A DNA stretch of 41,899 bases from positions 1 through 41,899 of the forward strand of contig VFKD01000033.1 in NCBI GenBank assembly GCA_009885735.1, written 5' to 3'. This stretch comes from a bacterium (GTDB taxonomy: Bacteria; Armatimonadota; Chthonomonadetes; Chthonomonadales; CAJBBX01). The notes beneath the pieces are model-generated. The model had not been told where the DNA came from, ran no database searches, and worked only from the letters and a program-made list of their open reading frames with translations. The first letter of the stretch is position 1, and each line of letters begins with the position of its first letter. Positions 3,808 through 24,148 of this stretch are shown one piece after another. Made by a program: the position numbers and the translations under genes.

Positions 3808-6800
3808 ATGATCCGCACCATCGACCCTAAACAGCTCGGTATACCGACCCTGGTACTTCCCCCAGGGTTCGGGGAAGCGCCTGCCTGCCGTCGCTGTGTG
3901 GAGTTCAGCCCCGGTCCCCGCCTTGACGGCACTCTGCTTGTCGACCCCGAGATTCACCTGCCCTCTCCCGGCATGGACGTGGATATCGCCTACTTCTACA
4001 ACGGCAACTCGACCTACAACGGTCCCTACGGCTATGGTCGCACCATCTCGCCGAACCAGCTGGCTGTTGCGAGCGGCGTTAACGCCATTGTCACCCTGCA
4101 GCGGGGCGACGGTTCGCTGGTGAGCTTCCAGGATGACGGGGCGGGTACCTTCAGGGCGAAGACTCCAGGTCTCCTGAACAGCCTTGTCAAGGACACCACC
4201 AACAGCTACTGGAAAGAGAGCACGCTCGACGGACAGACGCTCGCCTACCCATTGAACACAACTGGGATGGTCACCAGCATCGCCTACCAGGAGGACGCTT
4301 CCGGCAACCGGCACTCCTTCCTCTACTCCAGCGGCCGGTTGGAGACCCTGCAGGATGCAGTTGGGCGACGGGTCTCGTTCTCCTACGACGGCAACAACCT
4401 TCTGCAATCCATCCAAGACTGGGCGGACAGGCGCACGACGTTTCAGTACGACACGGTGAGCGTCTCGGGCAAGCCTCTCCTGGCGACGCTCATTGGCCCC
4501 TCGGGCTGCCAGACGGTCTACGGCTACACGACGGCCTACCTGGCAGGCCTGCCCGCTCTCACCCGGATTGTCGACCCGAACGGTTATGAAACGACCTACA
4601 TGTATGACCAGCAGGGCCGCATCACCAGCCGGGACGTAGCGGGTGCTGGGATAACGACTTACCTCTACCAGCCGACGACCATGATCCACATTGATGCGGT
4701 CGGCCAGGTCGCGACCTTGACGATGGACAGCAGCTTCGCCCTGCTTCAGGAGCAGTCTCCGGCCGGATACATTCTGACTTACACTCGCAACAGCCAGGGC
4801 CAGGTCACCGCCTCCCAGAACCCGCTCGGGTACGCCTGCACCACCAGCTACAATGCAAACGGGACCACGGGCGGAGCGGTGGATGCCTTGGGGTACATGA
4901 CCACTGTTCAGCGCGACGCCTACAGCAACGCGACGACCATGGTCTTTGCGGACGGGACCATTGCGACCATGCTCTATGGCTACGCAGGAAGCTCGTTCGA
5001 CACGACCGGCGTGAAGCGCAAGGTGCAGGTGGCCATCGGTCCGACAGGAACGAGAACCACCACGCTCTACAATGCGCGTGGGCAGGAGACCTCGGTCCAA
5101 GACCCGCTGGGTGGTTTTGTCTCGTACAGCTACGACTCTCTGGGGGACCGCGTGAGTGCGACGGACCCCACGGGCCGCACGACCAGCTATGTCCACGACG
5201 CGGCAGGCAACGTCATCGGAATCGTGGACATGCTCGGCTACCGCAGCAGTTTCTCCTACGACTCTCACAACCGACGCCTGACGGAGACCGACCCGCTGGG
5301 CTATACCCGCACGGTCGCCTACGATTCTGTGGGCAACAAGGTGGTGGAGATAGACCCGCTGGGGATGCGCTTGACCTGGACCTACAATGTGTTCGACAAG
5401 CCGGTTGACGTGGTGAACATGCTGGGCTACCGGGCCACGAGCGTCTACGACAGCCTGGGCCGCATGACCGCGCAGGTGGACCAGCTCGGCTACCGGACCT
5501 CGTTCCTCTACAACTCAGCCGGCCTAGCCGAGGCGGTGGTCAACCCGCTCGGTTACCGTTCGACGACCGTCTACGACGCAGCGGGCCGTCCCATCGCACA
5601 GGTGGATGCGCTGGGGAACCGCAGCACCGCGGTCTACAACGCCAACAACCAGGTCATTGCCTCCCAGAACGCTCTGGGGTACCTGAGCACCACCGTCTTC
5701 GACAGTCTTGGCAGGGTCTCCGCGCAGGTGGATGCCCTGGCCAACCGGACCACCACCGTCTACGGCCAGTCCGGACAGCCGGTCGCGGTGGTGAACCCGC
5801 TCGGCTATCGCTCTACCACGGTATACGACAACTCGGGCCGAGCCATCGCCAGACAGGATTCGCTGGGGTACCTGAGCACAACGGTCTACGATGCTGCGGG
5901 GAGACCGGTCGCCTCGGTCGATGCGCTGAACAGCCGCTGGACGACCCTCTATGACGAGGTGGGACGAAGACAGGCGCAGCAGGACCCGCTCGGTTACCGC
6001 AGTACGACGGTCTACGACGCGGCAAGCCGGGCCATCGCGGGTGTGGACGCGCTGGGATACCGCAGCACGAGCGTCTATGACGCCGCCGGTCACCGCATCG
6101 CGAGCCAGGACCCGCTCGGGAATCTTGCAACGGTGGTCTACGACGTTCTAGGGCGAGCGCAGGCAAGTATCGACCCCTTAGGCAACCGCGGCACCGCGCT
6201 CTACGACGCTGTCGGCAGGACCATCGCCTCCCAGAACCCGCTTGGGTACCTCAGCTCAACCGTCTACGATGCGGCGGGGCAGGCTGTCGGGTCGGTCGAT
6301 GCATTGGGAATCCGTTCGACCACTGTTTACGACGCCGCGGGTCGAGCAGAGGCGCGCCTGGACCCGTTAGGCAACCGATACACCAGCGTCTACGACGCCG
6401 CCAACAGAACCATCGCGGGCGTGGATGCCCTGGGTTACCGCTCGACTACGAATTACGATGCCGCTGGGAGATACCAGAGCTCCATTGATGCCCTGGGCCG
6501 GATGAGCACGACCCTCTACGACGCTGCCAGTCGCATGGTTGCCAGCCAGGACATGCTGGGGTACCGCAACACAACCGTCTACGACGCAGCAAACAGGCGC
6601 ATCGCCGGCCAGGACGCGAACGGGAACCTGAGCACGACAGTCTACGATGCAGCGGGCAGAGCCCTTGCCTTCCAGGATGCCTTGGGTTACCTCTCGACCT
6701 CGGTCTATGACGCTGCAGGACGCACCATCGCCTCGGTCGATGCCCTAGGCAACCGGTCCACGACCCAGTACGATGCCGCGGGCAGAGTGCAGGCAAGCGT

Positions 6801-9366
6801 CGATGCGCTGGGTTACCGGACGACCCCGGTCTACGATGCTGCGAGCAGGCAGATAGCCTGGCAGGATGCGCGAGGTTACCTCTCGACGACAGTCTATGAC
6901 GCTGCAGGCAGAGCCTCCGCCGGCGTCAATGCTCTCGGGTTCCGGACCTCCTTCAACTACGATGCCGCCTCGGAACAGGTCTCGGTCCAGGACGCCTTGG
7001 GCTTCCTGCACACAACCTCGTACGACGCAAACGGTCGGACGCTTGCAGCCGTCAACCCGCTTGGGTACCGCACCACGCCGGTCTACGATGCCGCCGGACG
7101 GATGCAGGCGCAGGTCGATGCGAACGGCAACCGCGTCACCACAGTCTACGACGCCCTGAGCAGGGTCCAGTCCCAGCAGGACGCAAGGGGCTACCTGACC
7201 AGCTTTGTCTTCGATGCGGTGGGGAACCAGCTTGCTGTCCAAAACGCGAGGGGCTGCCTCACCTCGTTTGGTTACGACGTGCGCAACATGCAGATAACCG
7301 AGCAGAACGCGCTCGGGACTCTCACCACGACCGTCTACGGGCCAACGGGATTGCGCATTAACCGAGTTGACGGTAACGGCAAGACCACGAGTTACGTCTA
7401 TGATGCAGCAAGTAGAGAGACCCAGGTGCGCTACCATGACGGGTCTCGGGTGACGAACAGCTACGATGCGCTGGGCCGGATTGCCACTCAGGCCTACTCA
7501 CTGGGAGTAGTCACGAACAGCTACAACGCCTTGGGGCAGTTAACGGGAGTCGCCTTTGCCCAGGCCGCGAACCGGTTCACCTACAGCTTCGACGGCGCAG
7601 GCAACCGAGCGGCGATGGTCATCGGCACAGGCGGGATATTCAGCTACAGCTATGACGCGATGAACGCCCTTTCAGCCATTCACAACCCGTACAATGAGCG
7701 AACCACTCTAACCTATGACGCCTTGGGCAGAGAGAGCCAGAGGGTTCTGGGCAACGGGGCGAAGATAACGTTTGCGTTTGATGCCGCCGGAAGAAACACC
7801 CTGCTCGACGCAAGGACCTCTGCAGGCGTGGGACTGGCCATCTACTCCGCGTCATACGACCCAGTCGGCAACCGGCTCGGGGTCCAGGAGCTTGACGGGA
7901 CGCTCGTGACCTACGGTTATGACTCAGGCTACCAGCTCACCAAAGACCAACGCAGCGGCGCGAACGCCTACAACAACAGCTTCACCTTCGACCCGACAGG
8001 CAACCGCCTCACCCGCTCCGCCTCGGGCTCGCTCAGCAACTACACCAGCAACGCGGCGGACCAGCTCACCCTCGTCCAGCCCGCAAGCGGCGCGCCGACG
8101 ACGCTCTCGTACGACCTGAACGGCAACATGACCTTGGAGAAGGCCGGGACGGTCGTTGACACCTACACCTGGGACCCAGAGAACCGGCTAAGCGTATGGA
8201 ACTCCGGGGCGTACAGCCAGTTGCAGACGTTCTCTTACGACCCGAGTGGCCTGAGAGTGCGGCGGGTCCTGCCGACTCGCACCGACAACCTGCTGAACGA
8301 CGACCAGAATGTCGCGCAAGTCGTCACCGGCGACCCGGTGGTCTACCAGCACCTGCCTCGCATTTGGGGCAGCCTCTTCTCGGTGCGATACTCGAACGCA
8401 AGCAAGATTGTCATCCCGGACTTCCAAGGACACAGCCGCCTGATGGTGAACAGTTCGCAGGCGATAACGGAGACGGCTATCTACGATGCGTGGGGCGCCG
8501 AAGTCCTGAACATGACTAGCGGCAAGCTCGACTTCCGTTCCTGGGGCGCGCTGGGTTACTTCCGGGACAGCCCCACGAGGAGCTATGTAAGGGCGCGGGA
8601 GCTGAGGAGGGACTGGGGGCGGTGGTTGAGCGTGGATCCGATTGGGTTCGCGGGTGGGAGTTGGTGTCTATACCAGTATGCATCTGCCTCACCTGTTAAC
8701 GTCTTCGACCCATCGGGCCTACAGGAGTGGGAAGGTAAGTGCTGTAGGTGTTGCTCGAACGATATTCGTGGCGACGCCACGTCGTGTAGCTATTCGTGTA
8801 CAATCAAAGATGCGTGCAAGGATTCCTTTAGCTCGCTTCCAAACAAATGCAACATCGACAGCATGACATTCTGTACGATAATGAATGATCACAAGCAATT
8901 GGGAGATTGCTGCCACGCAGCAAAGTTTGCAGACGTAGACCCTCAGTGCTTGTGTGGAGCCGCCCTCGTAGAACGCTCCTTCCGCACATCCTTGAATGAT
9001 ATCTGTGAGACTCTATGGTTCGAGGATACTGTCGGATGTGTACAGCTAGGCGTGGATACAGCACGAGCCGTATTCAAAGCTGCTAAGCGATGCTTGCCCG
9101 AGTTGCTCGCGGTGCTCGACCCACCAAAATCTGACTCGGAACTATTGAAGAAACTGCGCACTGACTGCAATTGGTCACTCAAAGTCATGGCTGTTTATGC
9201 CGCTGCATGGACAAGTCGTCGCTGCCAACTGAACCCAATTCCGTGTCGTAAGTGGGCGCTAGATATATGGAACCCTGGAGAGGACAATTTCAGAAAGAAC
9301 GTATTTCGGCCGCGAATGGAATGTGTACTAGACAACTTCAAGAACCCTTGCGCTAAGCTCAAATAG
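3808..9366 (+). CDS. Rhs/YD-repeat family polymorphic toxin (1852 aa) with an unassigned Cys-rich C-terminal domain
   Basis: There are dozens of ~21-aa YD repeats (..GYRSTTVYDAAGR..A..DALG..) from about 4300 to 8200. The Rhs-associated core ends at VNVFDPSGLQ (DPSGL at 8707-8721). A ~213-aa tail (8725-9363) with ~21 Cys follows and is visibly more A/T-rich than the body. An AAGGA sequence lies upstream of ATG 3808. Confidence 0.95.
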   Translation: MIRTIDPKQLGIPTLVLPPGFGEAPACRRCVEFSPGPRLDGTLLVDPEIHLPSPGMDVDIAYFYNGNSTYNGPYGYGRTISPNQLAVASGVNAIVTLQRGDGSLVSFQDDGAGTFRAKTPGLLNSLVKDTTNSYWKESTLDGQTLAYPLNTTGMVTSIAYQEDASGNRHSFLYSSGRLETLQDAVGRRVSFSYDGNNLLQSIQDWADRRTTFQYDTVSVSGKPLLATLIGPSGCQTVYGYTTAYLAGLPALTRIVDPNGYETTYMYDQQGRITSRDVAGAGITTYLYQPTTMIHIDAVGQVATLTMDSSFALLQEQSPAGYILTYTRNSQGQVTASQNPLGYACTTSYNANGTTGGAVDALGYMTTVQRDAYSNATTMVFADGTIATMLYGYAGSSFDTTGVKRKVQVAIGPTGTRTTTLYNARGQETSVQDPLGGFVSYSYDSLGDRVSATDPTGRTTSYVHDAAGNVIGIVDMLGYRSSFSYDSHNRRLTETDPLGYTRTVAYDSVGNKVVEIDPLGMRLTWTYNVFDKPVDVVNMLGYRATSVYDSLGRMTAQVDQLGYRTSFLYNSAGLAEAVVNPLGYRSTTVYDAAGRPIAQVDALGNRSTAVYNANNQVIASQNALGYLSTTVFDSLGRVSAQVDALANRTTTVYGQSGQPVAVVNPLGYRSTTVYDNSGRAIARQDSLGYLSTTVYDAAGRPVASVDALNSRWTTLYDEVGRRQAQQDPLGYRSTTVYDAASRAIAGVDALGYRSTSVYDAAGHRIASQDPLGNLATVVYDVLGRAQASIDPLGNRGTALYDAVGRTIASQNPLGYLSSTVYDAAGQAVGSVDALGIRSTTVYDAAGRAEARLDPLGNRYTSVYDAANRTIAGVDALGYRSTTNYDAAGRYQSSIDALGRMSTTLYDAASRMVASQDMLGYRNTTVYDAANRRIAGQDANGNLSTTVYDAAGRALAFQDALGYLSTSVYDAAGRTIASVDALGNRSTTQYDAAGRVQASVDALGYRTTPVYDAASRQIAWQDARGYLSTTVYDAAGRASAGVNALGFRTSFNYDAASEQVSVQDALGFLHTTSYDANGRTLAAVNPLGYRTTPVYDAAGRMQAQVDANGNRVTTVYDALSRVQSQQDARGYLTSFVFDAVGNQLAVQNARGCLTSFGYDVRNMQITEQNALGTLTTTVYGPTGLRINRVDGNGKTTSYVYDAASRETQVRYHDGSRVTNSYDALGRIATQAYSLGVVTNSYNALGQLTGVAFAQAANRFTYSFDGAGNRAAMVIGTGGIFSYSYDAMNALSAIHNPYNERTTLTYDALGRESQRVLGNGAKITFAFDAAGRNTLLDARTSAGVGLAIYSASYDPVGNRLGVQELDGTLVTYGYDSGYQLTKDQRSGANAYNNSFTFDPTGNRLTRSASGSLSNYTSNAADQLTLVQPASGAPTTLSYDLNGNMTLEKAGTVVDTYTWDPENRLSVWNSGAYSQLQTFSYDPSGLRVRRVLPTRTDNLLNDDQNVAQVVTGDPVVYQHLPRIWGSLFSVRYSNASKIVIPDFQGHSRLMVNSSQAITETAIYDAWGAEVLNMTSGKLDFRSWGALGYFRDSPTRSYVRARELRRDWGRWLSVDPIGFAGGSWCLYQYASASPVNVFDPSGLQEWEGKCCRCCSNDIRGDATSCSYSCTIKDACKDSFSSLPNKCNIDSMTFCTIMNDHKQLGDCCHAAKFADVDPQCLCGAALVERSFRTSLNDICETLWFEDTVGCVQLGVDTARAVFKAAKRCLPELLAVLDPPKSDSELLKKLRTDCNWSLKVMAVYAAAWTSRRCQLNPIPCRKWALDIWNPGEDNFRKNVFRPRMECVLDNFKNPCAKLK

Positions 9367-9949: not shown

Positions 9950-10651
9950 ATGATCCGCACCATCGACCCTAACCAGTTAGGCATCCCTACCCTGATTCTT
10001 CCTCCAGGGATTGGGGGCACGCCTTCGCGTCCCTCGGAAGCGCCTGCCTGCCGCAGGTGCGTCGAGTTCAGCCCTGGTCCTCGCCTGGACGGCACACTCC
10101 TGGTCGACCCCGAGATCCACCTGCCCTCACCCGGCATGGATGTGGACATCGCCTACTTCTACAACGGCAACTCGACCTACAACGGTCCCTACGGCTACGG
10201 GCGCACCATCTCTCCGAACCTGCTGGCTGTCGCGAGCGGCGTGAACGCCATTGTCACCCTGCAGCGGGGCGACGGCTCCTTGGTGAGCTTCCAGGATGAC
10301 GGGTCTGGCACGTTCGTCGCGAAGACCCCAGGGCTCTTGAACAGCCTGGTGAAGGACACCACCAACAGCTACTGGAAAGAGAGCACGCTCGACGGTCAGA
10401 CACTCGCGTATCCTCTCAATACCAGTGGCATGGTGACGAGCATCGCCTACCAGGAGGACGCTTCCGGCAACCGGCACTCCTTCGTCTACTCCAGCGGGCG
10501 CTTGGAGACCCTGCAGGATGCGGTCGGCGGGCGGGCTTCAGTCGCCATATCGAAGTCGAGCGTGATTCGGTGCCGGTTGCCTTGCGACAAGGTTCTGCTC
10601 GCACGTATCCCGCGCCTCCGCCCCCGTTCGCTTCAGTCTGGCGCCGGTTGA
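9950..10651 (+). pseudogene. Truncated second copy of the Rhs N-terminal module (about the first 195 codons only)
   Basis: 9950-~10537 parallels 3808-~4372 (MIRTIDP.QLGIPTL.LPPG...SSGRLETLQDAVG.R), with a 7-codon insertion near 10011-10031. After ~10537 the similarity stops and the frame runs into an unrelated 38-codon tail. No YD repeats or core follow. Confidence 0.8.
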
Positions 10652-10694: not shown

Positions 10695-12167
<1,473 letters not shown>

Positions 12168-12188
12168 GTCGCTCGCTGGGAGACTGTA

Positions 12189-12602
12189 ATGGCAACGTTC
12201 TTGCTGGAACTAGTGACGCCCGAGCGCGTGCTATTCTCGGACCAGGTGCGCGCTGTGCGCGTCCCTGGGATAGAGGGTTCGCTAGGCGTATTGGCGGGCC
12301 ACGCCCCGCTCATGACGGCGCTCGACGTGGGCTTGCTTAAGATCGACCATGTCAATGGCGACGTCGAGTATGTGGCAACGAGCGGCGGGTTTGTAGAGGT
12401 GAATCGCGACAAGGTCGTCGTCTTGGCTGATACTGCCGAGCGCGCATCCGACATCGATCTTGCGCGGGCCGAGGCGGCTATTGCCGTGGCTCGCGAGAAC
12501 CTCCGCGGCGGCGAGGTGGACTATGGCGACGCGAGCGCCACCCTCGCTCGCGCGACCAACCGATTGAAAATCGCTCAAATGCAGCAGCAGGACCGACAGT
12601 AG
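12189..12602 (+). CDS. atpC: F1 ATP synthase epsilon subunit
   Basis: 137 aa, 21 nt downstream of atpD. It shows the typical epsilon N-terminal beta-sandwich sequence (LELVTPERVLFSDQV..V.VPG.EG.LGVL.GHAP) and a C-terminal helical hairpin. Confidence 0.95.
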   Translation: MATFLLELVTPERVLFSDQVRAVRVPGIEGSLGVLAGHAPLMTALDVGLLKIDHVNGDVEYVATSGGFVEVNRDKVVVLADTAERASDIDLARAEAAIAVARENLRGGEVDYGDASATLARATNRLKIAQMQQQDRQ

Positions 12603-12633: not shown

Positions 12634-12732
12634 CCGCTCGTCCTGAGCGCGGCAGTTCCGCTCATCCTGAGCCAGCCACAGCCGCATCGTGGCAGTGTCG
12701 AAGGACCGTATCGAAGCGCAGTCGAAGGGTGC
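12634..12732. repeat. Tandem/compound copy of the dispersed CCGCTC.TCCTGAGC...GTCGAAGG repeat
   Basis: ccgctcgtcctgagcgcggcagttccgctcatcctgagccagccacagccgcatcgtggcagtgtcgaaggaccgtatcgaagcgcagtcgaagggtgc. It sits between the atpC stop and its terminator hairpin. Confidence 0.75.
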
Positions 12733-12779: not shown

Positions 12780-12813
12780 GCCCTCCTTGCAGCACACGAG
12801 GAGGGCTTCTTTG
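12780..12813 (+). terminator. Rho-independent terminator downstream of atpDC
   Basis: 8-bp stem gccctcct/aggagggc (12780-12787 / 12799-12806), an 11-nt loop, then ttctttg. Confidence 0.7.
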
Positions 12814-12952: not shown

Positions 12953-14395
12953 ATGATTCGCAGCATTCGCCTTACAAACTTCATGTCTCATACGGATACC
13001 ACCATTGAGCTCCCGGACGGGCTGACGGTGGTCGTCGGACCAAACAACTGCGGCAAGAGCGCGATTGTGGAGGCTCTGCGCGGTGTGTGCGAGAACACCT
13101 CGAGCGACTACATGATTCGCCACGGGTGCCGCGAAGCGCGCGTAACGGTCACCACAGCGGAGGGCGACGAGATTGAGTGGATCCGGCGCAAGGCAAGTTC
13201 TGCTTACAGGCTCAACGGTGTTGAGTATTCCCGGCTGGGCAAGGGGGGAGTGCCCGATGAGGTACGCGACGCCCTTCGGCTAGACAAAGTTGAGGTCAGC
13301 GCGACCGATTCCGAGGATGTACACATCGGAACGCAGAAGGAACCCATCTTTCTGCTGAACCGCCAGAAGCATGCGGCAGCCTTCTTTGCCTCCGTGTCGG
13401 ACGCAGGCAAGCTCCGCGAGATGCAGCGACTTCACGGCCAGCGCCACCTTCAGCGTGAGAGGGAACTCGTTGCGAGCGCGAAGGCTGAGAATCAGTTGCT
13501 CCACAGGCTCTCCATCCTCGACCCGGTCGAGGGCGCCATCATGATGATTAGTGGTGCGGACGAGCTGGCTCAGCAGGCTGCCGGCTTCGAGCGATCCGGC
13601 GAGCAGCTTGTTGGTCGCATTGCCAAGCTTGGACAAGCGATTCGGTTCGAGTTGGAGATTGCCTACCGCGCCAGCGCATTGAGTTCTCTCCGAGCAGTTC
13701 CAACACTTAAGCCGGCAGGCCACGTTCGGCAGGTTGTTGTTGCGCTGAAGTTAGCTGTCTATGCAGAGTCGCTTCACCAGGCGCGTGTGGCCGCCTCTTC
13801 GAAACTGACCCGTCCTCCCACTCTGGCCGACACCCGCACCGCGCGGCAGCTAGTTGACGCCCTGGATTCCGCCATTTGTGCGCAAGTCCGGCCCGAGGCG
13901 CGACTTGCCGCTTCGTCTGGGCTGACCGTGCCGCCAACTCTTTCCGACACTCGAGCACTCAATAGAGTGCTCCTGGGCATCCTCCGATGCCGGCACAATG
14001 CCACTCGGCACGGAGCCGTCTACTCGGCGCTCGAGACGATGAGACCGCCTGCCGTGGTGCAGAACACGGAGCAGATTCGGACGATGATCGGCAAGCTAAT
14101 GATTGCTGGATCCGCATCAGCGACCGCTCAGCGGAGGCTCGGAATCGTCCATTCGGTGCAGGAGCCACCTCCAACACGGGATATCTCAGCGCTGAGCAAG
14201 AGCGTTCGTCTGGTTCAGACGGCCTCTGAAGGAGTCGCAGCGGCTCAACGTGCTTTGAGCACAACCGAGATGCGATGCCAAGAGGAATACAAGAGCCTCG
14301 AAGCCGCCTGCAGGCATGCGCCTCCGTGCCCAGTGTGCGGCCAGCCGAGAACCCTGGAACAGACACTCGCAGGAGCAGGCAGTGCCCAGCGATAA
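12953..14395 (+). CDS. Rad50/SbcC-like ABC/SMC-type ATPase, N-terminal head lobe plus helical arm ending in a CxxC hook-like motif
   Basis: The N-terminus MIRSIRLTNFMSHTDTTIELPDGLTVVVGPNNCGKSAIVEAL is the RecF/RecN/SbcC-type start with Walker A. About 300 aa of helical region follow, containing five degenerate ~39-aa repeats. CPVCG lies at 14327-14341, 17 codons before the stop. There is no Walker B or signature motif in this polypeptide. Confidence 0.8.
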   Translation: MIRSIRLTNFMSHTDTTIELPDGLTVVVGPNNCGKSAIVEALRGVCENTSSDYMIRHGCREARVTVTTAEGDEIEWIRRKASSAYRLNGVEYSRLGKGGVPDEVRDALRLDKVEVSATDSEDVHIGTQKEPIFLLNRQKHAAAFFASVSDAGKLREMQRLHGQRHLQRERELVASAKAENQLLHRLSILDPVEGAIMMISGADELAQQAAGFERSGEQLVGRIAKLGQAIRFELEIAYRASALSSLRAVPTLKPAGHVRQVVVALKLAVYAESLHQARVAASSKLTRPPTLADTRTARQLVDALDSAICAQVRPEARLAASSGLTVPPTLSDTRALNRVLLGILRCRHNATRHGAVYSALETMRPPAVVQNTEQIRTMIGKLMIAGSASATAQRRLGIVHSVQEPPPTRDISALSKSVRLVQTASEGVAAAQRALSTTEMRCQEEYKSLEAACRHAPPCPVCGQPRTLEQTLAGAGSAQR

Positions 14396-15368
14396 CTACT
14401 CCGGGATACTCTTCATCGGCGATCCTCACCTAAGCGACCGGACCGTGGGATTTCGCCGGGACAACTACTGTGAGACGATTCTGGGCAAACTCGAATGGTC
14501 GCTCGATCTCGCGAACAGCCAGAATCTGCTGCCTGCGCTTCTGGGCGACTTGTTTCACTTTCCGCGAGACAACTCCAATTCTCTCTTGGTTCGGCTGATG
14601 CGCCTGTTGGAACGCCAAACAGTCCTCGGGATCGTAGGCAATCACGATGTGGCCACGAACTCTCTGGAAGACGAGGCGTCGCTAGCAATTCTTCACCAGA
14701 GTGGGTGCATTCGGCTCGTCGATGTGGACGGCCCTTGGGTTGGGACGGTTTCTGGTCGCACCGTGGTGGTGGGCGGAACCACGTGGAGCGCGAAGGTGCC
14801 GAAGTCGGTCGACACTCAGTCGCTCAGCCAGGATGCGAACCGATATGTGGTCTGGCTTACCCACGACAATGTTCAGTTCGCGGGCTTCGAAGGCGAGAGG
14901 CGGCTTGTTCCGCACCGCATCGAGGGAGTAGACCTCGTGGTGAACGGGCACATCCATCGGCCGCTTCCTGCGGCGATGGCCAACGGCACGCTTTGGATCA
15001 ATCCCGGCAACATCTCCAGGATTGCTCGAGCAGATGCAGGCCGTGATAGGCAGCCAAGCGTGACGGAGTTGACATTCGACGCTGTCTCTGGAGAACCGAG
15101 ACTCGGAACCCACATCGTGCCGCACCTTCCATTCGAGGAGGCATTCCATGAGCTGGGCGATCTGCCCGAAAGCGATGAGGCGGTCTCACCCACAGTGCTT
15201 GGATTGAGGGAGCTTACCGCCCTCCGAACGGCGGGAGGCGAGGGACTGATGAACTTTTTGGACAGGAACCTGGATTCCGACCCAGCGGAAATTCGAGCCG
15301 AGATACTCTCGCTCGCAAAGGAGGTAATAGGAGATGAGCAGTTCAGCGCCTACCATCGAGGAGCTTAG
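14382..15368 (+). CDS. Mre11/SbcD-like calcineurin-type metallophosphoesterase (putative nuclease)
   Basis: All five phosphoesterase motifs are present: GDPH, GDLFH, GNHD, LTHD, NGHIH. A GTG at 14382, preceded by AGGAG (14371-14375), overlaps the upstream stop by 14 nt. The ORF track's start at 14316 would overlap by 80 nt. Confidence 0.85.
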   Translation: MPSDNYSGILFIGDPHLSDRTVGFRRDNYCETILGKLEWSLDLANSQNLLPALLGDLFHFPRDNSNSLLVRLMRLLERQTVLGIVGNHDVATNSLEDEASLAILHQSGCIRLVDVDGPWVGTVSGRTVVVGGTTWSAKVPKSVDTQSLSQDANRYVVWLTHDNVQFAGFEGERRLVPHRIEGVDLVVNGHIHRPLPAAMANGTLWINPGNISRIARADAGRDRQPSVTELTFDAVSGEPRLGTHIVPHLPFEEAFHELGDLPESDEAVSPTVLGLRELTALRTAGGEGLMNFLDRNLDSDPAEIRAEILSLAKEVIGDEQFSAYHRGA

Positions 15369-15627
15369 CGCCCGGTATCAGAAGCTCGACAGGCAGCGCA
15401 CTGTCGAGCAGACAAATCTGGAGAATGCGCGCAAGAACCTCGCCGCGCTTGAGGCGGAGGCGATCGAGGCCTACGGCACCAAGGACATCAAGGCCCTACA
15501 GACTATGCTGGCCGAGATGGAGTCCGATAACGAGAGGCTGGTTCTCGAGTATGCGGGCGAACTTGACAAGATACAGGCGAATCTGGCGGCTGTGGAAAGT
15601 GGGCTGCAAAATGAGGCGCAGGGCTAG
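15334..15627 (+). CDS. Small (97 aa) predicted coiled-coil protein of the split Rad50-like operon
   Basis: ATG 15334 is preceded by AAGGAGG (15318-15324) and overlaps the phosphoesterase gene by 35 nt. The sequence is heptad-like and Glu/Ala/Leu-rich (LENARKNLAALEAEAIEAYG...LAEMESDNERLVLEYAGELDKIQANLAAVE). Confidence 0.55.
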   Translation: MSSSAPTIEELSARYQKLDRQRTVEQTNLENARKNLAALEAEAIEAYGTKDIKALQTMLAEMESDNERLVLEYAGELDKIQANLAAVESGLQNEAQG

Positions 15628-15629
15628 CC

Positions 15630-16346
15630 GTGCTTTCAGCAGAGACCCGTATGAGCGTCGCCTCACATGCCTCGACAATGAACGATCTGCGAATACGCAG
15701 CGTCGAGCTAAACGCGCGTCGAACGCTCGCTCGCGAGCAGCTTGCCTCCGAGCAGGCGAAGATCGAGGCGCTTAAGGCTATAGTCGCTCGTGGTCCCGCC
15801 GTGAGGGAGCGGCTGGAGCACCTGGGAGACGAGCTGTTCAAATCAGTCCAGAGCGCGCTCCAGCACGTGTTGAGCCTCGCCATCCAGGAAGTCCTTCAGG
15901 AGCCGGTCTGCTTCGCCGTGGAGATAACCGCCCGAGCGGGAACGGCCTCGCTCAGCTTCTCCATTCAGCGGGACGGAATGACGGAGGATGTCATGCGCGG
16001 CCAGGGCGGCTCCGTGGCAAACATTTTGTCGGTGGGACTTCGCTTCTTCGCGCTTACTCAGATGGACACTGCGCGGCACAGGCAGTTTCTCGTCCTTGAT
16101 GAGCAGGACTGCTGGCTGCGACCGGACCTTGTGCCGAAGTTTGTAAAGATTGTTCGTGATGCCACGCGGGAGCTCGGCATACAAACGCTAATGATTAGTC
16201 ATCACGATATCACGACATTCGAGCGGTATGCAGACCGCATCTACCAACTTCGCCCAAGCGCGGACGGGGTCCGCGCCTCACTCTGGGAACTTGACCCAGC
16301 TGAGCCCGATGTGGCCGACGTTGGTGAGAAGCGGGAGCCGACATAG
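15630..16346 (+). CDS. Rad50/SbcC-like ATPase, C-terminal head lobe (signature-like motif, Walker B, H-loop)
   Basis: It carries RGQGGSVANILSVGLRF (signature-like), FLVLDEQDCWL (Walker B/D-loop) and LMISHHD (H-loop), preceded by ~90 aa of helical region. It has no Walker A. The GTG at 15630 is 2 nt after the upstream stop; in-frame ATGs at 15651 and 15678 are alternative starts. Confidence 0.8.
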   Translation: MLSAETRMSVASHASTMNDLRIRSVELNARRTLAREQLASEQAKIEALKAIVARGPAVRERLEHLGDELFKSVQSALQHVLSLAIQEVLQEPVCFAVEITARAGTASLSFSIQRDGMTEDVMRGQGGSVANILSVGLRFFALTQMDTARHRQFLVLDEQDCWLRPDLVPKFVKIVRDATRELGIQTLMISHHDITTFERYADRIYQLRPSADGVRASLWELDPAEPDVADVGEKREPT

Positions 16347-16374
16347 AAAGAAGGCCGGAGCAGATGCTCCGGCC
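16347..16374 (-). terminator. Hairpin terminator shared by the convergent operons (T-tract on the minus strand)
   Basis: 9-bp stem ggccggagc/gctccggcc (16353-16361 / 16366-16374) with a 4-nt loop. On the minus strand it is followed by ttcttt, so it should terminate the secretin operon. It begins 7 nt after the plus-strand stop at 16346 but has no plus-strand T-tract. Confidence 0.6.
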
Positions 16375-16430: not shown

Positions 16431-16483
16431 TCCGCTCGCCCTGAGCGCTCGTCAGCCTCATCGACGAGCAGTCGAAGGGTGCA
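16431..16483. repeat. Single copy of the dispersed CCGCTC.CCTGAGC...GTCGAAGG repeat
   Basis: tccgctcgccctgagcgctcgtcagcctcatcgacgagcagtcgaagggtgc, lying between the secretin stop and the terminator hairpin. Confidence 0.75.
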
Positions 16484-21158: not shown

Positions 21159-22728
21159 GCTGTGCCACCTCGGCGCGTTCCGCCTGTGACGCCACAGCAG
21201 TGGCCCTGCGCCGGTCCGACGGAGGCTTCACGGCGGACTTCAGCTTGCATGCAATCACAAAGTTTATCCCCGCCTCAATCTTTGCAGCCGCCGGTTGCGC
21301 TGTGCCAACTGTCACCGGCGCAGCCATTGCATCGCCGATATAGGTTAGCCGCACATCCGCGTAGTGGCCGCCGGCTCGAAGGGCGCGAACAATCTGCGCC
21401 ACGCCGTCCTGCGTCCTTGCATTTCCGTGGATGGACGTCGTGCCCGCTCGGTCCATGCTCAACTGAGTCAAGCGGACAGGTTCCTTCGCGGGAACGGAGT
21501 CACTGAGTCCCTTCACCAGTTCGAGGCTAGGCGCATTTCGAGCGAGACCGGACTGCAGTGCCTGGTAGGTGCGCGCGAGATCATCGTGCTCTCTCTTTGC
21601 GCGTTCATATCGAACCTTGTTCTTGTCCATCTCGGAATTAGCCATACTGTCTCTCTTACGCTGCTCTTGTCCACTGCTCATGCTTTGCAGCGTGAAAGCT
21701 GCCACAGCCAGCAGCACTGCGGCTCCTACCACGGCGCCAACCATTGACCGAGTGCGCCGGACCGCGGCCGAGCGCCGCTCGAGCCGTTCCGGCGGGATAA
21801 GGTTGACCTGCGGTCCGCTCGCTGTGGCTGCCTGGGCTGCTGCGCCTATGACTGCCGCATACCGTCCTCGGTCGGGCCCGCGCAGCAGCGCGCCAACGAG
21901 TGGCCGAACAGGTGTTTCTACTTGTTGGGACAGCACATTGCAGATGGCGGTAACTTCGGAATCGCCGCCGGTTACGAGAATCTGATCGAGCGGCATCGCG
22001 TGCATCTCGTTTTGGTAGGCAGAGATGGACCGAACAATCTCGATGCTTGCCGCGCGAGCGCCCGCCTCGGTAGAAGATGAGCCGGAGACCTGTGCGGCTC
22101 GCGTAAACGCGACCTTGCCTGCGCGCGATACCGTCACCTCGACTTCAGTCTCTTCCAGCCGTACTATAGCGCACGCCATAACATCCGCTGGAACATGGGC
22201 TGCCAGAGCGAGCGTGGTGATGGTGATGCCGTCCACACGCAGCCGAGCCGCGTCGAAAACCTGCATCAACCCAGAAGCAAGGTCATTGCGAGCCGCCGCA
22301 ATGAGCACGCTCGTGAGTTCATCGCCCTCGTCAGACAGCAGGTAGTGGTCTATAACCACCTGTTCCATGGGGAAAGGGATGTACTGCTGCGCCTCGAAGC
22401 GCACCATGCCCTCAACGTATTCCGGGGCGGCATGCGGCAGCTGGGCCGTCTTGAGGGTGACAAGGCGCCTAGGCAGCAGTCCTATTACGTGCTCAGACTG
22501 GATTCCGGCTGAAGTCATTGCTGCTCGTATCGCTGTACCGATCTCGCGAGCATGCGATCCCACGTCCGGCCAAGCCTGCGCCGAGAAGGGGGCTGAGCCA
22601 ATCTTGACGGATGCACTGGCTCCAGGTCGCTGCATTACCTCCGCCACGCGCACCGCCCCGTATCCTATCTCCACGGCGACGCTGGTCGAGGATGTCGAGC
22701 GTCCTCGCGTGCCGTTCTTAATTGCCAA
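21154..22728 (-). CDS. PilM-PilN fusion (GspL-like actin-fold assembly ATPase-like protein with TM and periplasmic domain)
   Basis: N-terminal PilM-type domain (VAVEIGYGAVRVAEV...), a central TM segment (MVGAVVGAAVLLAVAAFTL), then a PilN-like periplasmic part. A TTG at 22728 is preceded by GGAGG with a 5-nt spacer. The ORF track's TTG at 22749 is an alternative start. Confidence 0.7.
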   Translation of the reverse strand: MAIKNGTRGRSTSSTSVAVEIGYGAVRVAEVMQRPGASASVKIGSAPFSAQAWPDVGSHAREIGTAIRAAMTSAGIQSEHVIGLLPRRLVTLKTAQLPHAAPEYVEGMVRFEAQQYIPFPMEQVVIDHYLLSDEGDELTSVLIAAARNDLASGLMQVFDAARLRVDGITITTLALAAHVPADVMACAIVRLEETEVEVTVSRAGKVAFTRAAQVSGSSSTEAGARAASIEIVRSISAYQNEMHAMPLDQILVTGGDSEVTAICNVLSQQVETPVRPLVGALLRGPDRGRYAAVIGAAAQAATASGPQVNLIPPERLERRSAAVRRTRSMVGAVVGAAVLLAVAAFTLQSMSSGQEQRKRDSMANSEMDKNKVRYERAKREHDDLARTYQALQSGLARNAPSLELVKGLSDSVPAKEPVRLTQLSMDRAGTTSIHGNARTQDGVAQIVRALRAGGHYADVRLTYIGDAMAAPVTVGTAQPAAAKIEAGINFVIACKLKSAVKPPSDRRRATAVASQAERAEVAQR

Positions 22729-24148
22729 ATGTTCCTCCAGAATTGCCAAGCGCCGTAGTTCTATTCCAACTGCTCCAGCCGGGTCTTCGCGCCATCTCTT
22801 TCCACTGAAGCAGCCTTGGCGGCATGGCCGCCGGTGCGCCCGCCGTTTGCGCGGTCGGATCTTCTGGCGGACTCACCTCAACGAGAGCTTGAACCACCAT
22901 CGGCCTGCCCGTGGCCATGCGCACCCATACTCGCACCAGAAACGCGCTGGACTTTGTGCAAACCTGATCCACAAGCGCCTGCAACTGCTGACGGTTCAGA
23001 TCAGTGAGTTGAAACAGATCGTTCATCCCGCTGAAGACGGTTCCGCTCTCCCTGGCCTGAATGACCGCATCGTACGTTGCCTGGTCCACTCCAGTGAGGG
23101 CCGCCAGAACTTCCCTTGGAGCGGTGTTGATGTTCACCACATTTGTGCGAAACTGATCGTTGGTTACGGTGAACTTGTCACCGGACTCCTGCATGATCTG
23201 TCGCGTGAACCCAGTCACATTCAGCAGGTCTGCGATTGACTTTATGGCATTTGTGCCTGTGCCGGCACGAGCTTGAACCAGGCGCTGAGCCAGCTGGCTT
23301 GTAAGTCCCGCCTTGTCCTGGAGGTCCTGCGCACTGGCGGTCAGAATGTTGACCCTCTTTGAGCCATCCGCCTGAACATTGAGCTCTTTTGTATAGGTTG
23401 TAAAGAGTTCGCAGAGAGCGACGGTTTGGCCAGGGCTCTCGGCTTGCTCGACCGGTGCCGGGTCGCCGCCTCCACCTCCCTGCCGCGACCTTGTGGAGCG
23501 CGTGGCGCCTGACCCTCGGGAGCTTGCGCCGGCATCATCCTGTTGCTCTCTCGGACCATACAGAAGCTCGGTGGTCATCCCCTTGATGAGAAGGAGCTCA
23601 TCCACCGTGTCGAGCGGCGCATTCTTCGCACTGTAGGGTACCTGCAGGCCCTGGTAATAGTCCGTCTCGACGCCCTCTACCTGCCTCGCAACGCCCTTTT
23701 CGGAAATTGAGACTGGACCCGTGTCGTCCGAATCTCGCCAGTTGATGATGTTCGCAACGAGCTCGTCGCGCCCATCGACGTTTGGCAGGCTGCGTAGGAT
23801 CGTGTCCGCCGAGGCTGTATTGACGTTGAGCCGAGAGGTCGTGTCAACAACCTCCACTTTGTACCAGCCCTCGCCCAGAGCTGTCCATCCATTCGAGTCT
23901 GTGTCGGGCGGCTGGGTCAATTGGGCTGTGACCGAGCCCCCGTTCGTCTGCGCCTGCAGGGAGGCCATCGCATACTGCACCGCTCCCCTCGCGATAAGGT
24001 AGCGCTGCATGTCCCGATAGTTCGCCTCGGCTGCGCGTGAGTTTCTTCGCGACGACGTCGTAGTGGACACCACGAATGCCGTTAGAATGAGCACCACGAA
24101 AAGGACTGGAATCAGGGCTTGAGCTCGGTTTCGACGGCGCGCCGTCAT
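22718..24148 (-). CDS. gspK: Minor pseudopilin GspK-like
   Basis: Hydrophobic N-terminus without Glu5 (AQALIPVLFVVLILTAFVV). There are repeated helix-hairpin-helix-like LN(V/I)NTA motifs (RLNVNTASADTIL, VNILTASAQDL, VNINTAPREVL) typical of GspK. The ATG overlaps the upstream stop (ATGA). Confidence 0.8.
   Translation of the reverse strand: MTARRRNRAQALIPVLFVVLILTAFVVSTTTSSRRNSRAAEANYRDMQRYLIARGAVQYAMASLQAQTNGGSVTAQLTQPPDTDSNGWTALGEGWYKVEVVDTTSRLNVNTASADTILRSLPNVDGRDELVANIINWRDSDDTGPVSISEKGVARQVEGVETDYYQGLQVPYSAKNAPLDTVDELLLIKGMTTELLYGPREQQDDAGASSRGSGATRSTRSRQGGGGGDPAPVEQAESPGQTVALCELFTTYTKELNVQADGSKRVNILTASAQDLQDKAGLTSQLAQRLVQARAGTGTNAIKSIADLLNVTGFTRQIMQESGDKFTVTNDQFRTNVVNINTAPREVLAALTGVDQATYDAVIQARESGTVFSGMNDLFQLTDLNRQQLQALVDQVCTKSSAFLVRVWVRMATGRPMVVQALVEVSPPEDPTAQTAGAPAAMPPRLLQWKEMARRPGWSSWNRTTALGNSGGTFGN

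What the first reader, a model, noticed from the sequence alone, without database searches (positions are those of the whole stretch)
12953..16346. Split Rad50/SbcC-type ATPase wrapped around an Mre11/SbcD-type phosphoesterase: a compact four-gene operon I cannot match to a described system
Four plus-strand genes are translationally coupled. GTG 14382 with AGGAG overlaps the upstream stop by 14 nt, ATG 15334 overlaps by 35 nt, and GTG 15630 starts 2 nt after a stop. Gene 1 (480 aa) has only the N-terminal ABC/SMC head lobe (MIRSIRLTNFMSH..., Walker A GPNNCGKS) plus a long helical arm ending in CPVCG. Gene 4 (238 aa) has only the C-terminal lobe (RGQGGSV signature-like motif, Walker B FLVLDEQD, H-loop ISHHD). 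Between the two halves lie a phosphoesterase with all five calcineurin-type motifs (GDPH, GDLFH, GNHD, LTHD, GHIH) and a 97-aa coiled-coil protein. In canonical SbcCD/Mre11-Rad50 the ATPase is one polypeptide that folds back on itself at the zinc hook. Here the break falls just after the hook-like motif and the nuclease gene is interposed, so an ATP-competent head can only form from two or three separate chains. The operon is free-standing, sitting between housekeeping atpDC and a secretion cluster. It is bounded by hairpins (12780-12813, 16353-16374) and by copies of the same dispersed repeat on both sides (12634-12732, 16431-16483). That context fits an accessory DNA-end-sensing nuclease module, possibly anti-phage or anti-plasmid. 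A divergent housekeeping SbcCD is an equally open alternative.
Basis: partly seen in the sequence, partly recalled or inferred. Interest (0 to 1): 0.85.

Follow-up and report, generated by a model that had tools for sequence, protein, structure and literature searches.

The report
Naturally split Rad50/Mre11-like nuclease operon
This is a real, widely conserved four-gene cassette in which a Rad50/SbcC-type DNA-repair ATPase is built from two separate proteins, alongside an Mre11-like nuclease and a small helical protein; the architecture does not appear in the papers I could search.

Summary
Four tightly packed plus-strand genes (12953-16346) encode four proteins.

- **G1** has an ABC/SMC N-lobe, a helical arm and a C-terminal CPVCG.
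- **G2** is an Mre11/SbcD-like metallophosphoesterase.
- **G3** is a 97-aa alpha-hairpin.
- **G4** has an 86-aa helix followed by an ABC C-lobe.

AlphaFold models of G1 and G4 match the N-terminal and C-terminal half-chains of Rad50 and SMC heads. The order G1-G2-G3-G4 recurs in 66 of 80 species genomes examined. A pattern-limited scan found the family in at least 340 species, mostly Planctomycetota plus several other phyla, with unrelated neighbours in each.

- Relatives on proteobacterial megaplasmids fuse the halves in permuted order (G4::G1), inside a rotated operon G3-(G4::G1)-G2.
- Bacillus phages carry the same parts.
- The arm is built from 39-residue proline-punctuated repeats whose number varies, while G3 and G4 stay constant in length. 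It therefore cannot be a full-length fold-back coiled coil.

A syntenic Chthonomonadales relative lacks the cassette between atpC and the secretin gene. Defence genes are not enriched nearby.

Best reading: an accessory, horizontally spread, ATP-gated DNA-end nuclease of the Mre11-Rad50 kind. It is a new variant of a known kind.

The parts
12780..12813 (+). Hairpin plus T-rich tail after atpC. Probable atpC terminator and upstream limit of the cassette's transcription unit.
   Evidence: Sequence read: GCCCTCCT-11 nt-AGGAGGGC followed by TTCTTTGCG. The terminator scan missed it because the loop exceeds 8 nt.
12953..14395 (+). G1 (480 aa): N-terminal lobe of an ABC/SMC/Rad50-type ATPase head (residues 1-150), a 94-aa helix, five 39-aa proline-punctuated helical repeats, a 44-aa helix and a C-terminal CPVCG.
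   Evidence: Pfam AAA_23 1.9e-12 and AAA_15 6e-12. NCBIfam Rad50 2e-10. AF2 model with mean pLDDT 76.7. Foldseek top hits are N-terminal half-chains of SMC and Rad50 heads: 5h67_A, 3av0_B, 1f2u_C. 55 homologues. Alignment A2.
13037..13060 (+). Walker A / P-loop, GPNNCGKS (G1 residues 29-36).
   Evidence: G29, N31, N32, G34, K35 and S36 are invariant in 36 homologues.
13334..13336 (+). Q-loop glutamine (G1 Q128).
   Evidence: Invariant, within the conserved H-x3-Q-K-x-P-I-F-L-L block.
13688..14272 (+). Five tandem 39-residue repeats (about 28-aa helix plus an LxxPPxLxDTxxL loop). Units start near G1 residues 246, 285, 324, 363 and 402.
   Evidence: Motif positions. AF2 helices at 256-282, 295-321, 333-361 and 372-401, separated by low-pLDDT loops. 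Homologue lengths are quantised near 405, 445, 484 and 520 aa.
14327..14341 (+). CPVCG, a zinc-hook-like motif 18 residues before the G1 C-terminus.
   Evidence: C459, P460, C462 and G463 are nearly invariant or invariant. G1 profile positions 374-432 match Rad50 zinc-hook structures 6zff (4e-6) and 1l8d (1e-4). A C-terminal CxxC is present in 97 of 102 family members.
14382..15368 (+). G2 (328 aa from GTG 14382): Mre11/SbcD-like metallophosphoesterase with a conserved C-terminal helix-loop-helix (SxFVxGLAELQxRRTxSGAGLxxFL).
   Evidence: Pfam Metallophos 4e-9. Five motifs are invariant in 35 homologues. The profile's best solved-structure hits are T. maritima Mre11/SbcD (2q8u, 4o24, 3qg5_C, about 7e-4) and P. 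furiosus Mre11.
15334..15627 (+). G3 (97 aa): small acidic two-helix protein, helix-YGT(D/K)D-helix, probably an alpha-hairpin.
   Evidence: Alignment of 40 homologues with a conserved Y-G-T turn between two helices of about 35 aa. No Pfam or PDB family beyond generic coiled coils. Present at the same position in 66 of 80 loci.
15630..16346 (+). G4 (238 aa; alternative start about 15651): 86-aa N-terminal helix plus the C-terminal lobe of the ABC/SMC/Rad50 head.
   Evidence: AF2 model with mean pLDDT 83.6. Foldseek top hits are the C-terminal half-chains of P. furiosus Rad50 (9a9j_B; 1f2u_D with TM 0.69) and B. subtilis SMC (5h66_B). 1637 homologue clusters, all about 215-260 aa.
15999..16013 (+). 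Signature-like motif GQGGS (G4 residues 124-128).
   Evidence: G126, G127 and S128 invariant; G124 and Q125 nearly invariant. A pairwise phmmer alignment instead placed LSVGLR on LSGGQ, so the exact register is unsettled.
16086..16109 (+). Walker B and the start of the D-loop, FLVLDEQD (G4 residues 153-160).
   Evidence: F153, L154, L156, D157, E158, Q159 and D160 invariant. Aligns to the Walker B of SMC and ABC proteins.
16194..16208 (+). H-loop, ISHHD (G4 residues 189-193).
   Evidence: S190, H191 and H192 invariant.
16353..16374 (.). Perfect 9-bp GC hairpin between the convergent G4 and secretin genes. The T-tract is on the minus strand.
12635..12732 (+). Left copy of a dispersed REP-like repeat. 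It marks the boundary and is probably not a functional part of the cassette.
   Evidence: Four copies in the window.
16433..16482 (+). Right (shorter) copy of the same dispersed repeat.

Best explanation
The four genes encode one complex: an ATP-gated DNA-end or hairpin nuclease of the Mre11-Rad50/SbcCD kind, assembled from four polypeptides instead of two.

**Shown**
- G1 supplies the N-lobe (Walker A, Q-loop).
- G4 supplies the C-lobe (signature-like GQGGS, Walker B, D-loop, H-loop).
- A complete ABC active site therefore exists only when G1 and G4 combine.
- Natural G4::G1 fusions show that the two parts belong together.

**Inferred**
- The 94-aa helix that leaves the G1 lobe pairs antiparallel with the 86-aa helix that enters the G4 lobe. 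Together they form a short Rad50-like neck.
- Two such composite heads sandwich two ATP molecules and clamp DNA.
- A dimer of the Mre11-like G2 docks on the neck through its conserved C-terminal helix-loop-helix, and cuts when ATP is hydrolysed.
- Beyond the neck, the G1 arm is a one-way modular rod of 39-residue repeats ending in a Zn-binding CxxC (plus HxH in most relatives). That motif joins or caps the arms.
- G3, an alpha-hairpin, is a structural subunit of the arm or neck.

**Biology**
The cassette is an accessory unit that spreads horizontally. It shares ancestry with modules in phage and megaplasmid replication regions. Its most likely role is processing DNA ends or secondary structures during repair and recombination.
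For: **Complementary lobes**
- Fold matches.
- Motif conservation.
- Profile hits to SMC and Rad50.

**The parts belong together**
- The order G1-G2-G3-G4 is found in 66 of 80 genome loci and in 3 of 3 metagenome loci.
- In fused relatives, P0233 residues 14-217 match G4 (E 2e-34) and residues 221-419 match G1 (E 5e-21). They are flanked by a G3-like gene (87%) and a G2-like gene (99.9%).

**Nuclease partner**
- G2 has all five phosphoesterase motifs, and Mre11/SbcD are its best solved relatives.

**Hook**
- The G1 C-terminus matches Rad50 zinc-hook structures.

**Relatives on mobile elements**
- Bacillus phages vB_BboS-125 and 0305phi8-36.
- Megaplasmids of 0.7-1.3 Mb, next to helicase, topoisomerase and rep genes.

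**Accessory status**
- The cassette is absent from the syntenic atpC-secretin junction in a Chthonomonadales relative.
- Neighbours are not conserved.
Against: - There is no biochemical evidence of any kind.
- The G2 similarity to Mre11/SbcD is weak (E about 7e-4), and its capping and Rad50-binding domains were not modelled.
- The arm geometry is unknown. The G1 model has pTM 0.33 and no multimer prediction was possible.
- The CxxC may be an intramolecular CCHH zinc knuckle rather than an intermolecular hook. HxH follows in 53 of 97 members, and the window's copy has no histidine there.
- A few relatives replace the CxxC with a transmembrane segment, which is odd for a pure DNA-repair machine.
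- Whether these genomes also keep a canonical sbcCD could not be checked.
Confidence: 0.65

Rival explanations
1. It is an anti-phage or anti-plasmid defence system. An SMC/ABC-type sensor (G1+G4, with G3) recognises foreign DNA ends or topology and licenses the G2 nuclease, by analogy with Wadjet, Lamassu or Gabija.
For: - Sporadic distribution across at least eight phyla at 45-60% G4 identity.
- Presence/absence polymorphism at a syntenic site.
- Carried as a compact, self-contained cassette.
- Weak local hits of G1 and G4 to the ABC ATPases of defence systems (AriA, GajA, mad3, AbiLi).
Against: - The PADLOC hits cover only the P-loop or Walker B stretches, and G2 has no hit.
- Defence-model hits among the 122 immediate neighbours in 66 loci were sporadic: one Cas3, one kinase matching the PD-T4-6 models, one sigma-54-type regulator. 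Neighbours are mostly metabolic or housekeeping genes.
- Homologous modules sit inside phage and megaplasmid replication regions, which fits a function serving the element itself.
- No IMG/VR hit for the four-gene type.
Confidence: 0.18
2. It is not primarily a nuclease. Instead it would be an SMC-like DNA-organising or segregation device for replicons, with G2 acting as a phosphatase or regulatory subunit. This would explain its place beside rep, helicase and topoisomerase genes on megaplasmids, and the membrane-anchored G1 variants.
For: - Megaplasmid context next to the replication initiator, helicase and topoisomerase.
- Transmembrane variants of G1.
- The G1 profile scores slightly better against SMC6 than against Rad50 heads.
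Against: - No hinge domain and no kleisin-like partner.
- G2 keeps every catalytic metal ligand of Mre11-type nucleases, and its closest solved relatives are Mre11/SbcD.
- The CPxCG plus its preceding helix matches the Rad50 hook specifically.
Confidence: 0.1
3. It is a broken canonical sbcC: a local rearrangement, a pseudogene or an assembly artefact.
For: Source annotations name G1 and G4 homologues as SbcC or SbcCD ATPase-subunit pieces.
Against: - The same split and gene order occur in 66 of 80 independent species genomes.
- G4 is 45-60% identical across phyla, with invariant catalytic motifs.
- 1637 standalone G4 clusters exist.
- The genes overlap as coupled reading frames.
Confidence: 0.01

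Closest known systems
Mre11-Rad50 (archaea, eukaryotes) and SbcCD (bacteria), including phage T4 gp46/gp47
   Same: - ABC/SMC-type head with Walker A and Q-loop in the N-lobe, and signature, Walker B and H-loop in the C-lobe.
- A coiled-coil segment leaves the head.
- A CPxCG motif with a preceding helix that matches Rad50 hook structures.
- An adjacent, co-translated Mre11/SbcD-like phosphoesterase with all five motifs.
   Different: - The head is made from two gene products, or is circularly permuted in fused relatives.
- The C-lobe brings only about 86 aa of helix.
- The CxxC lies at the C-terminus of a one-way arm instead of at the apex of a fold-back coiled coil.
- The arm is a variable array of 39-aa proline-punctuated repeats.
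- There is a fourth subunit (G3).
- The operon has four genes rather than two.
Mre11/Rad50 fusion proteins (Mimivirus R555 group; Yoshida, Claverie and Ogata 2011, PMC3175470), including Bacillus phage 0305phi8-36 gp8
   Same: - 0305phi8-36 gp8 is a true relative. It is a fusion of a G2-like and a G1-like part.
- The paper noted that this phage protein lacks one of the two P-loop NTPase segments.
   Different: - In the window, G2 and G1 are separate genes.
- The segment described as missing in the phage is explained here by a separate G4-like gene, gp5 (hhalign 94.8%). The paper did not report this.
Unnamed 'AAA family ATPase' plus metallophosphoesterase pair on proteobacterial megaplasmids (for example pMPPla107 PLA107_RS34545 and RS34550)
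   Same: All four parts are homologous: a G3-like small protein, G4-like and G1-like segments, and a G2-like phosphoesterase.
   Different: - G4 and G1 are fused in that order into one protein of 590-720 aa.
- The operon order is rotated (G3, G4::G1, G2).
- The context is a megaplasmid replication region rather than a chromosome.
- Sequence identity is only about 32-34%.
ABC/SMC-type ATPases of defence systems (GajA, AriA, PtuA, LmuB, JetC, mad3)
   Same: A P-loop N-lobe of the same superfamily, partnered with a nuclease.
   Different: - Those ATPases are single chains.
- Their nuclease partners are Toprim, HNH, Cap4 and similar, not Mre11-type.
- The matches here are restricted to about 50 residues around the P-loop.
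- G2 has no PADLOC hit and the genomic context is not defence.

Membership tests
Mre11-Rad50 / SbcCD complex | ABC-type ATPase head with Walker A and Q-loop (N-lobe) and signature, Walker B, D-loop and H-loop (C-lobe). | tested here: met
   All motifs are present and conserved, but divided between G1 and G4. The folds match Rad50 and SMC half-heads.
Mre11-Rad50 / SbcCD complex | Both lobes lie in one polypeptide and are joined by a long intramolecular antiparallel coiled coil. | tested here: not met
   - Two genes are separated by G2 and G3 in 66 of 80 loci.
- The G4 helix is only 86 aa.
- The G1 arm varies in 39-aa steps without compensating change in G3 or G4.
- Single-chain relatives are circularly permuted.
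Mre11-Rad50 / SbcCD complex | Zinc hook: a CxxC at the coiled-coil apex that dimerises arms through a shared Zn. | tested here: inconclusive
   - CPVCG is conserved, and the profile matches hook structures 6zff and 1l8d.
- However, it sits at the C-terminus, and 53 of 97 relatives add HxH 11-24 residues later, a possible intramolecular CCHH site.
- Zn binding and dimerisation cannot be tested with these tools.
Mre11-Rad50 / SbcCD complex | Partner nuclease of the Mre11/SbcD clade of calcineurin-like phosphoesterases, encoded adjacently. | tested here: met
   - Five motifs invariant.
- Best solved-structure hits are Mre11/SbcD, though weak at about 7e-4.
- The gene is adjacent and overlaps its neighbours.
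- The capping domain and Rad50-binding domain were not modelled.
Mre11-Rad50 / SbcCD complex | ATP-dependent exo- and endonuclease activity on DNA ends and hairpins. | not testable with these tools
   Needs biochemistry.
SMC-kleisin complexes (Smc-ScpAB, MukBEF, Wadjet/JetABCD) | A hinge dimerisation domain at the coiled-coil apex, plus kleisin and KITE or hawk partners. | tested here: not met
   - The G1 model and its Pfam hits show no hinge domain.
- G2 is a phosphoesterase and G3 is a 97-aa hairpin with no family match.
Catalogued anti-phage systems (PADLOC-DB v2) | Full-length match of the component proteins to a system's models, and the system's gene set. | tested here: not met
   G1 and G4 give only local P-loop or Walker B hits. 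G2 gives none. G3 gives only weak coiled-coil noise.
Mre11/Rad50 fusion proteins (Yoshida et al. 2011) | [quoted passage not shown] | tested here: not met
   G2 and G1 are separate genes in the window. The phage relative 0305phi8-36 gp8 is fused.

The most novel reading that the evidence does not exclude
This cassette may represent a distinct branch of Rad50/SbcC-like machines, borne ancestrally on mobile elements (phages, megaplasmids, chromosomal cassettes). It would abandon the defining SMC/Rad50 topology in four ways.
- The head is assembled in trans or is circularly permuted.
- The arm is a one-way, length-modular rod of 39-residue repeats rather than a fold-back coiled coil.
- The Zn-binding CxxC(-HxH) sits at the chain end.
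- A dedicated alpha-hairpin subunit (G3) is required.

Such a complex would have to bridge or clamp DNA with a different geometry, for example a parallel dimeric stalk closed by a terminal zinc clasp. It could be a natural minimal system for studying how the arms and hooks of SMC-like proteins signal to the head.
Probability: 0.4. Interest if true: 0.8.

Novelty: new variant of a known kind. Interest (0 to 1): 0.62.

Why it matters
Rad50/SbcC and all SMC proteins are defined by one chain that folds back on itself, so that its two ends form the ATPase head. How the long arm and the zinc hook talk to the head is still debated.

This is a widespread natural family: at least 340 species genomes in a pattern-limited scan, and about 1,600 G4 clusters. 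In it the head is split into two proteins, or is circularly permuted. The return strand of the arm is largely missing, arm length changes in discrete 39-residue steps, and the hook sits at a chain terminus.

- It offers a ready-made dissection of these questions and a compact system to express.
- It fixes annotation. G3 and G4 have no Pfam family, G1 and G4 are labelled as SbcC fragments or transporter ATPases, and a published 'missing ATPase segment' in phage 0305phi8-36 is explained.
- It links chromosomal cassettes in Planctomycetota and Armatimonadota to modules in the replication regions of megaplasmids and phages.

Tried and rejected
1. **Pseudogene or assembly artefact.** Rejected by conservation of the split and the gene order.
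2. **Simple 'Rad50 cut at the hook'.** Rejected by the permuted fusions and by arm-length quantisation without compensating change in G3 or G4.
3. **Known defence system.** PADLOC gave only local ATPase hits and nothing for G2. Neighbour scans with PADLOC and Pfam showed no defence enrichment.
4. **Prophage or viral origin of the four-gene type.** The IMG/VR scan found nothing. A tblastn search of the phage collection with the fused relative P0233 also found nothing. Only distant Bacillus, Microbacterium and Tunturiibacter phage relatives turned up.
5. **Flanking repeats as cassette ends.** The repeat is dispersed, with four copies in 42 kb. The syntenic relative has neither the repeat nor the cassette. 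A role in the insertion therefore stays open but unsupported.
6. **Conserved neighbours.** None. The largest flank cluster occurs in 7 of 66 loci (DUF2237).
7. **Literature.** Searches for split or bipartite Rad50/SbcC, circularly permuted ABC ATPases, pMPPla107 and Planctomycetes SbcCD found nothing that describes this architecture. The most relevant survey, Krishnan et al. 2020 (NAR, PMC7544218), is not held, so I cannot exclude that it mentions the family.
8. **G3 profile against the PDB.** Only generic coiled-coil noise.

Full report
**1. The observation**

The junctions are as described.
- AGGAG lies 7 nt before the GTG at 14382, which overlaps the G1 stop by 14 nt.
- GGAGG precedes the ATG at 15334, which overlaps the G2 stop by 35 nt.
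- The G4 GTG lies 2 nt after the G3 stop.
- The public gene call for G4 uses a later start and gives 231 aa, probably the ATG at 15651. The G4 start is therefore uncertain by 21 nt.

An 8-bp hairpin with a T-rich tail at 12780-12813 reads as the atpC terminator. The perfect 9-bp hairpin at 16353-16374 has its T-tract on the minus strand, so it also serves the convergent secretin gene. The four genes thus form their own transcription unit.

**2. What the proteins are**

G1
- It matches only the N-terminal part of ABC/SMC/Rad50 models: Pfam AAA_23 1.9e-12 and AAA_15; NCBIfam Rad50 2e-10, RecN and SMC; PHROG 'exonuclease' 5e-20.
- An AlphaFold2 model built on 36 homologues (mean pLDDT 76.7) has several parts: a beta-rich P-loop lobe (1-150), a 94-residue helix (151-244), four helices of about 28 residues separated by low-confidence loops, a 44-residue helix, and then CPVCG.
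- Its best structural matches are the N-terminal chains of two-chain head constructs: B. subtilis SMC 5h67_A, and Rad50 3av0_B and 1f2u_C.

G4
- It has no Pfam family.
- Its model (mean pLDDT 83.6) is an 86-residue helix followed by an alpha/beta lobe.
- The best matches are the C-terminal chains of the same constructs: P. furiosus Rad50 9a9j_B, 1f2u_D (TM 0.69) and SMC 5h66_B.
- A family profile also aligns its Walker B region and its preceding helix to cohesin SMC heads.

Catalytic motifs
- Walker A (GPNNCGKS) and the Q-loop glutamine (Q128) are invariant in G1.
- The signature-like GQGGS, Walker B FLVLDEQD, a D-loop aspartate and the H-loop SHH are invariant in G4.
- A complete ABC active site therefore exists only when G1 and G4 combine.

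G2
- It is a calcineurin-type phosphoesterase (Pfam 4e-9).
- GDPH, GDLFH, GNHD, H161 and GHIH are invariant in 35 homologues. There is also a conserved C-terminal helix-loop-helix.
- A family profile finds T. maritima Mre11/SbcD and P. furiosus Mre11 as its best solved relatives. The hits are weak, at about 7e-4.

G3
- It is a conserved helix-YGT(D/K)D-helix protein with no family match.

**3. Conservation**

- G1 has 55 detectable homologues at 28-38% identity, apart from two hits near 30% over under half of G1 and hits covering only its N-terminal third.
- G4 is far better conserved, with 1637 clusters. The best 120 are 46-63% identical and all 190-270 aa.
- A pattern-limited scan of one genome per species found relatives in 340 species. 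Most are Planctomycetota. Others are Desulfobacterota, Armatimonadota, Acidobacteriota, Zixibacteria, Spirochaetia, Bacillota and Bipolaricaulia. One is a cultured strain, Planctomicrobium sp. SH668.
- In the 80 loci fetched, 66 show G1-G2-G3-G4 adjacent on one strand. Nine are cut by a contig end, and four or five have G4 alone.
- Three metagenome loci reached through G1 show the same order.
- The split is therefore the normal state of this family, not a local accident.

**4. The arm is not a fold-back coiled coil**

- After the first long helix, G1 contains five 39-residue units: a helix of about 28 residues plus an LxxPPxLxDTxxL loop. They start near residues 246, 285, 324, 363 and 402.
- Homologue lengths cluster near 405, 445, 484 and 520 aa, in steps of one unit. 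G3 and the two halves of G4 keep constant lengths.
- G4 can pair with only about 86 residues of G1, and G3 has two helices of about 35 residues. Together they cannot supply a return strand for the whole arm, and they do not co-vary with its length.

**5. The C-terminal CxxC**

- The CxxC is present in 97 of 102 family members.
- The G1 profile, over the last helix plus CPxCG, matches the Rad50 zinc-hook structures 6zff (4e-6) and 1l8d (1e-4).
- However, the motif sits 18 residues from the chain end.
- In 53 of those 97 members an HxH follows 11-24 residues later, which suggests a possible intramolecular CCHH site. The window's G1 has no histidine there.
- Three loci replace the CxxC with a transmembrane segment, and a fourth lacks both.

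**6. Permuted and phage relatives**

An exhaustive profile search with G4 found 2708 representatives. After the standalone proteins of about 230 aa comes a large group of 590-720 aa proteins that carry the G4-like part at residues 5-215.

These longer proteins are G4::G1 fusions.
- P0233 residues 14-217 align to G4 20-222 (E 2e-34).
- P0233 residues 221-419 align to G1 2-193 (E 5e-21).
- Both proteins end in CPVC.
- Pfam SMC_N hits the C-terminal part of its model first and the N-terminal part second. That is a circular permutation relative to Rad50.
- Their operon is a small G3-like protein (hhalign 87%), the fused ATPase, and a G2-like phosphoesterase (99.9%). This is a cyclic rotation of the window's order.
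- They occur on 21 PLSDB megaplasmids of 0.7-1.3 Mb, in Pseudomonas (including pMPPla107), Vibrio, Bosea, Variovorax, Rhizobium and others. On the Pseudomonas and Vibrio megaplasmids examined they sit beside helicase and topoisomerase genes (plus a replication initiator on pMPPla107); on the Bosea plasmid the neighbours include ligD.

Bacillus phages carry the parts as well.
- vB_BboS-125 has a G1-like gp32, a 78-aa gp34, a G4-like gp35 (96.6%) and an unannotated G2-like ORF (94.9%).
- 0305phi8-36 has a G2::G1 fusion (gp8) and a G4-like gp5 (94.8%).
- Yoshida et al. (PMC3175470) reported gp8 as an Mre11/Rad50 fusion that lacks one ATPase segment. The separate gp5 explains that gap.

**7. Genomic status in this organism**

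- AtpD places the window in Armatimonadota, order Chthonomonadales: 88-91% identity to MAGs of that order.
- A relative, GCA_020849275.1, has the same atpD-atpC-secretin/T2SS synteny. There, only 96 bp separate atpC from the secretin gene.
- Window 10765-12485 aligns to its atpDC region, and window 16738 onward aligns to its secretin gene. The window therefore holds about 3.7 kb extra, which is exactly the cassette.
- Two other relatives have different genes after atpC.
- Across 66 loci no neighbour is conserved; the largest cluster covers 7 loci.
- Among 122 immediate neighbours, PADLOC hits are sporadic: one Cas3, one kinase, one regulator. Pfam hits are mostly metabolic or housekeeping.
- IMG/VR holds no relative of the four-gene type.
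- GC content matches the flanks.
- The repeat that flanks the cassette is a dispersed element with four plus-strand copies in the window.

**8. Interpretation**

The best-supported reading is an ATP-gated DNA-end or hairpin nuclease of the Mre11-Rad50/SbcCD kind, built from four chains.

Shown:
- the complementary lobes;
- the Mre11-like partner;
- the linkage of all four genes;
- natural fusions that prove G4 and G1 act together.

Inferred:
- the G1-G4 neck;
- G2 docking through its C-terminal helices;
- the role of the terminal CxxC in joining or capping arms;
- G3 as an arm or neck subunit.

The cellular role is less certain. End processing in repair and recombination is most likely. It fits the cassette's kinship with phage and megaplasmid modules, several of which lie beside helicase, topoisomerase or replication genes. 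A defence role is not excluded, but it has no contextual support. A non-nuclease SMC-like role is less likely, because G2 keeps an intact catalytic site.

**9. Novelty**

- No PADLOC, Pfam or NCBIfam model describes the system, and G3 and G4 have no Pfam family.
- No paper in the held library describes a split or permuted Rad50/SbcC.
- The key ABC-ATPase survey (PMC7544218) could not be read.
- I rate this a new variant of a known kind. The biochemistry is probably familiar, but the architecture breaks a defining feature of the SMC/Rad50 family.

Noticed in passing
window 1892-2013, 12635-12732, 16433-16482, 32495-32544: A dispersed REP/MITE-like repeat, with four copies all on the plus strand. 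The core is about 55 nt (CCGCTCGTCCTGAGCGC...CAGCCGTATCGAG...GCAGTCGAAGG). Two copies carry an extra internal duplication. At least three of the four copies lie in intergenic spaces.
   Followed up: partly
window 3808-9366 (+) and 9950-10651 (+): An 1852-aa RHS-repeat protein (Pfam RHS_repeat 7e-108), followed by a 233-aa ORF with no Pfam hit. This looks like a polymorphic toxin with a possible immunity gene, just upstream of atpDC.
   Followed up: no
L002 6397-8622, L025, L007 (G1 homologues; also P0018, P0012): Some G1 homologues (540-754 aa) have no C-terminal CxxC. Instead they carry a strongly hydrophobic, TM-like segment. In L002 and L025 this is followed by a long low-complexity region and a small conserved C-terminal domain (GFGQAA.L.P.EL...AL.GYQ.EVE.AL). 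A membrane-anchored Rad50-like arm would be unusual.
   Followed up: partly
L007 3194-3805 and 3798-4469: One MAG, labelled Thiomargarita, carries two tandem G4 paralogues (203 and 223 aa) after G1-G2-G3.
   Followed up: no
L005 7247-8227 (Bacillus phage vB_BboS-125, NC_048735.1 about 22423-23403): An unannotated 326-aa ORF is a G2-like metallophosphoesterase (hhalign 94.9% to the G2 family profile). An AP2/HNH-type gene interrupts the G1-like and G4-like genes of this phage.
   Followed up: partly
L004 (Bacillus phage 0305phi8-36 gp8, gp7, gp6, gp5): The published Mre11/Rad50 fusion gp8 was reported to lack one ATPase segment (PMC3175470). A separate downstream gene, gp5 'ATPase', is a G4-like C-lobe (hhalign 94.8%) and supplies that segment.
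   Followed up: yes
L089 (pMPPla107), L091 (Vibrio vulnificus megaplasmid), L090 (Bosea): Megaplasmids of about 0.7-1.3 Mb from unrelated Proteobacteria carry the small protein / permuted ATPase / phosphoesterase trio. The Pseudomonas and Vibrio ones share a conserved block around it: topoisomerase, lytic transglycosylase and helicase upstream of the trio. PLSDB types them all as non-mobilizable.
   Followed up: partly
L040, L051, L061, L068: In four or five of the 80 genomes the G4 homologue stands alone. The gene upstream is on the opposite strand, so G1-G3 must be elsewhere in the genome or absent.
   Followed up: no
L086 9473-10375 and L087 3925-4827: In two metagenome contigs an RdgC (recombination-associated) gene lies two genes downstream of the fused system. 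L086 also carries DNMK, a T2SSE-family ATPase gene, DUF4326 and a second metallophosphoesterase, a context that looks like a mobile element.
   Followed up: no
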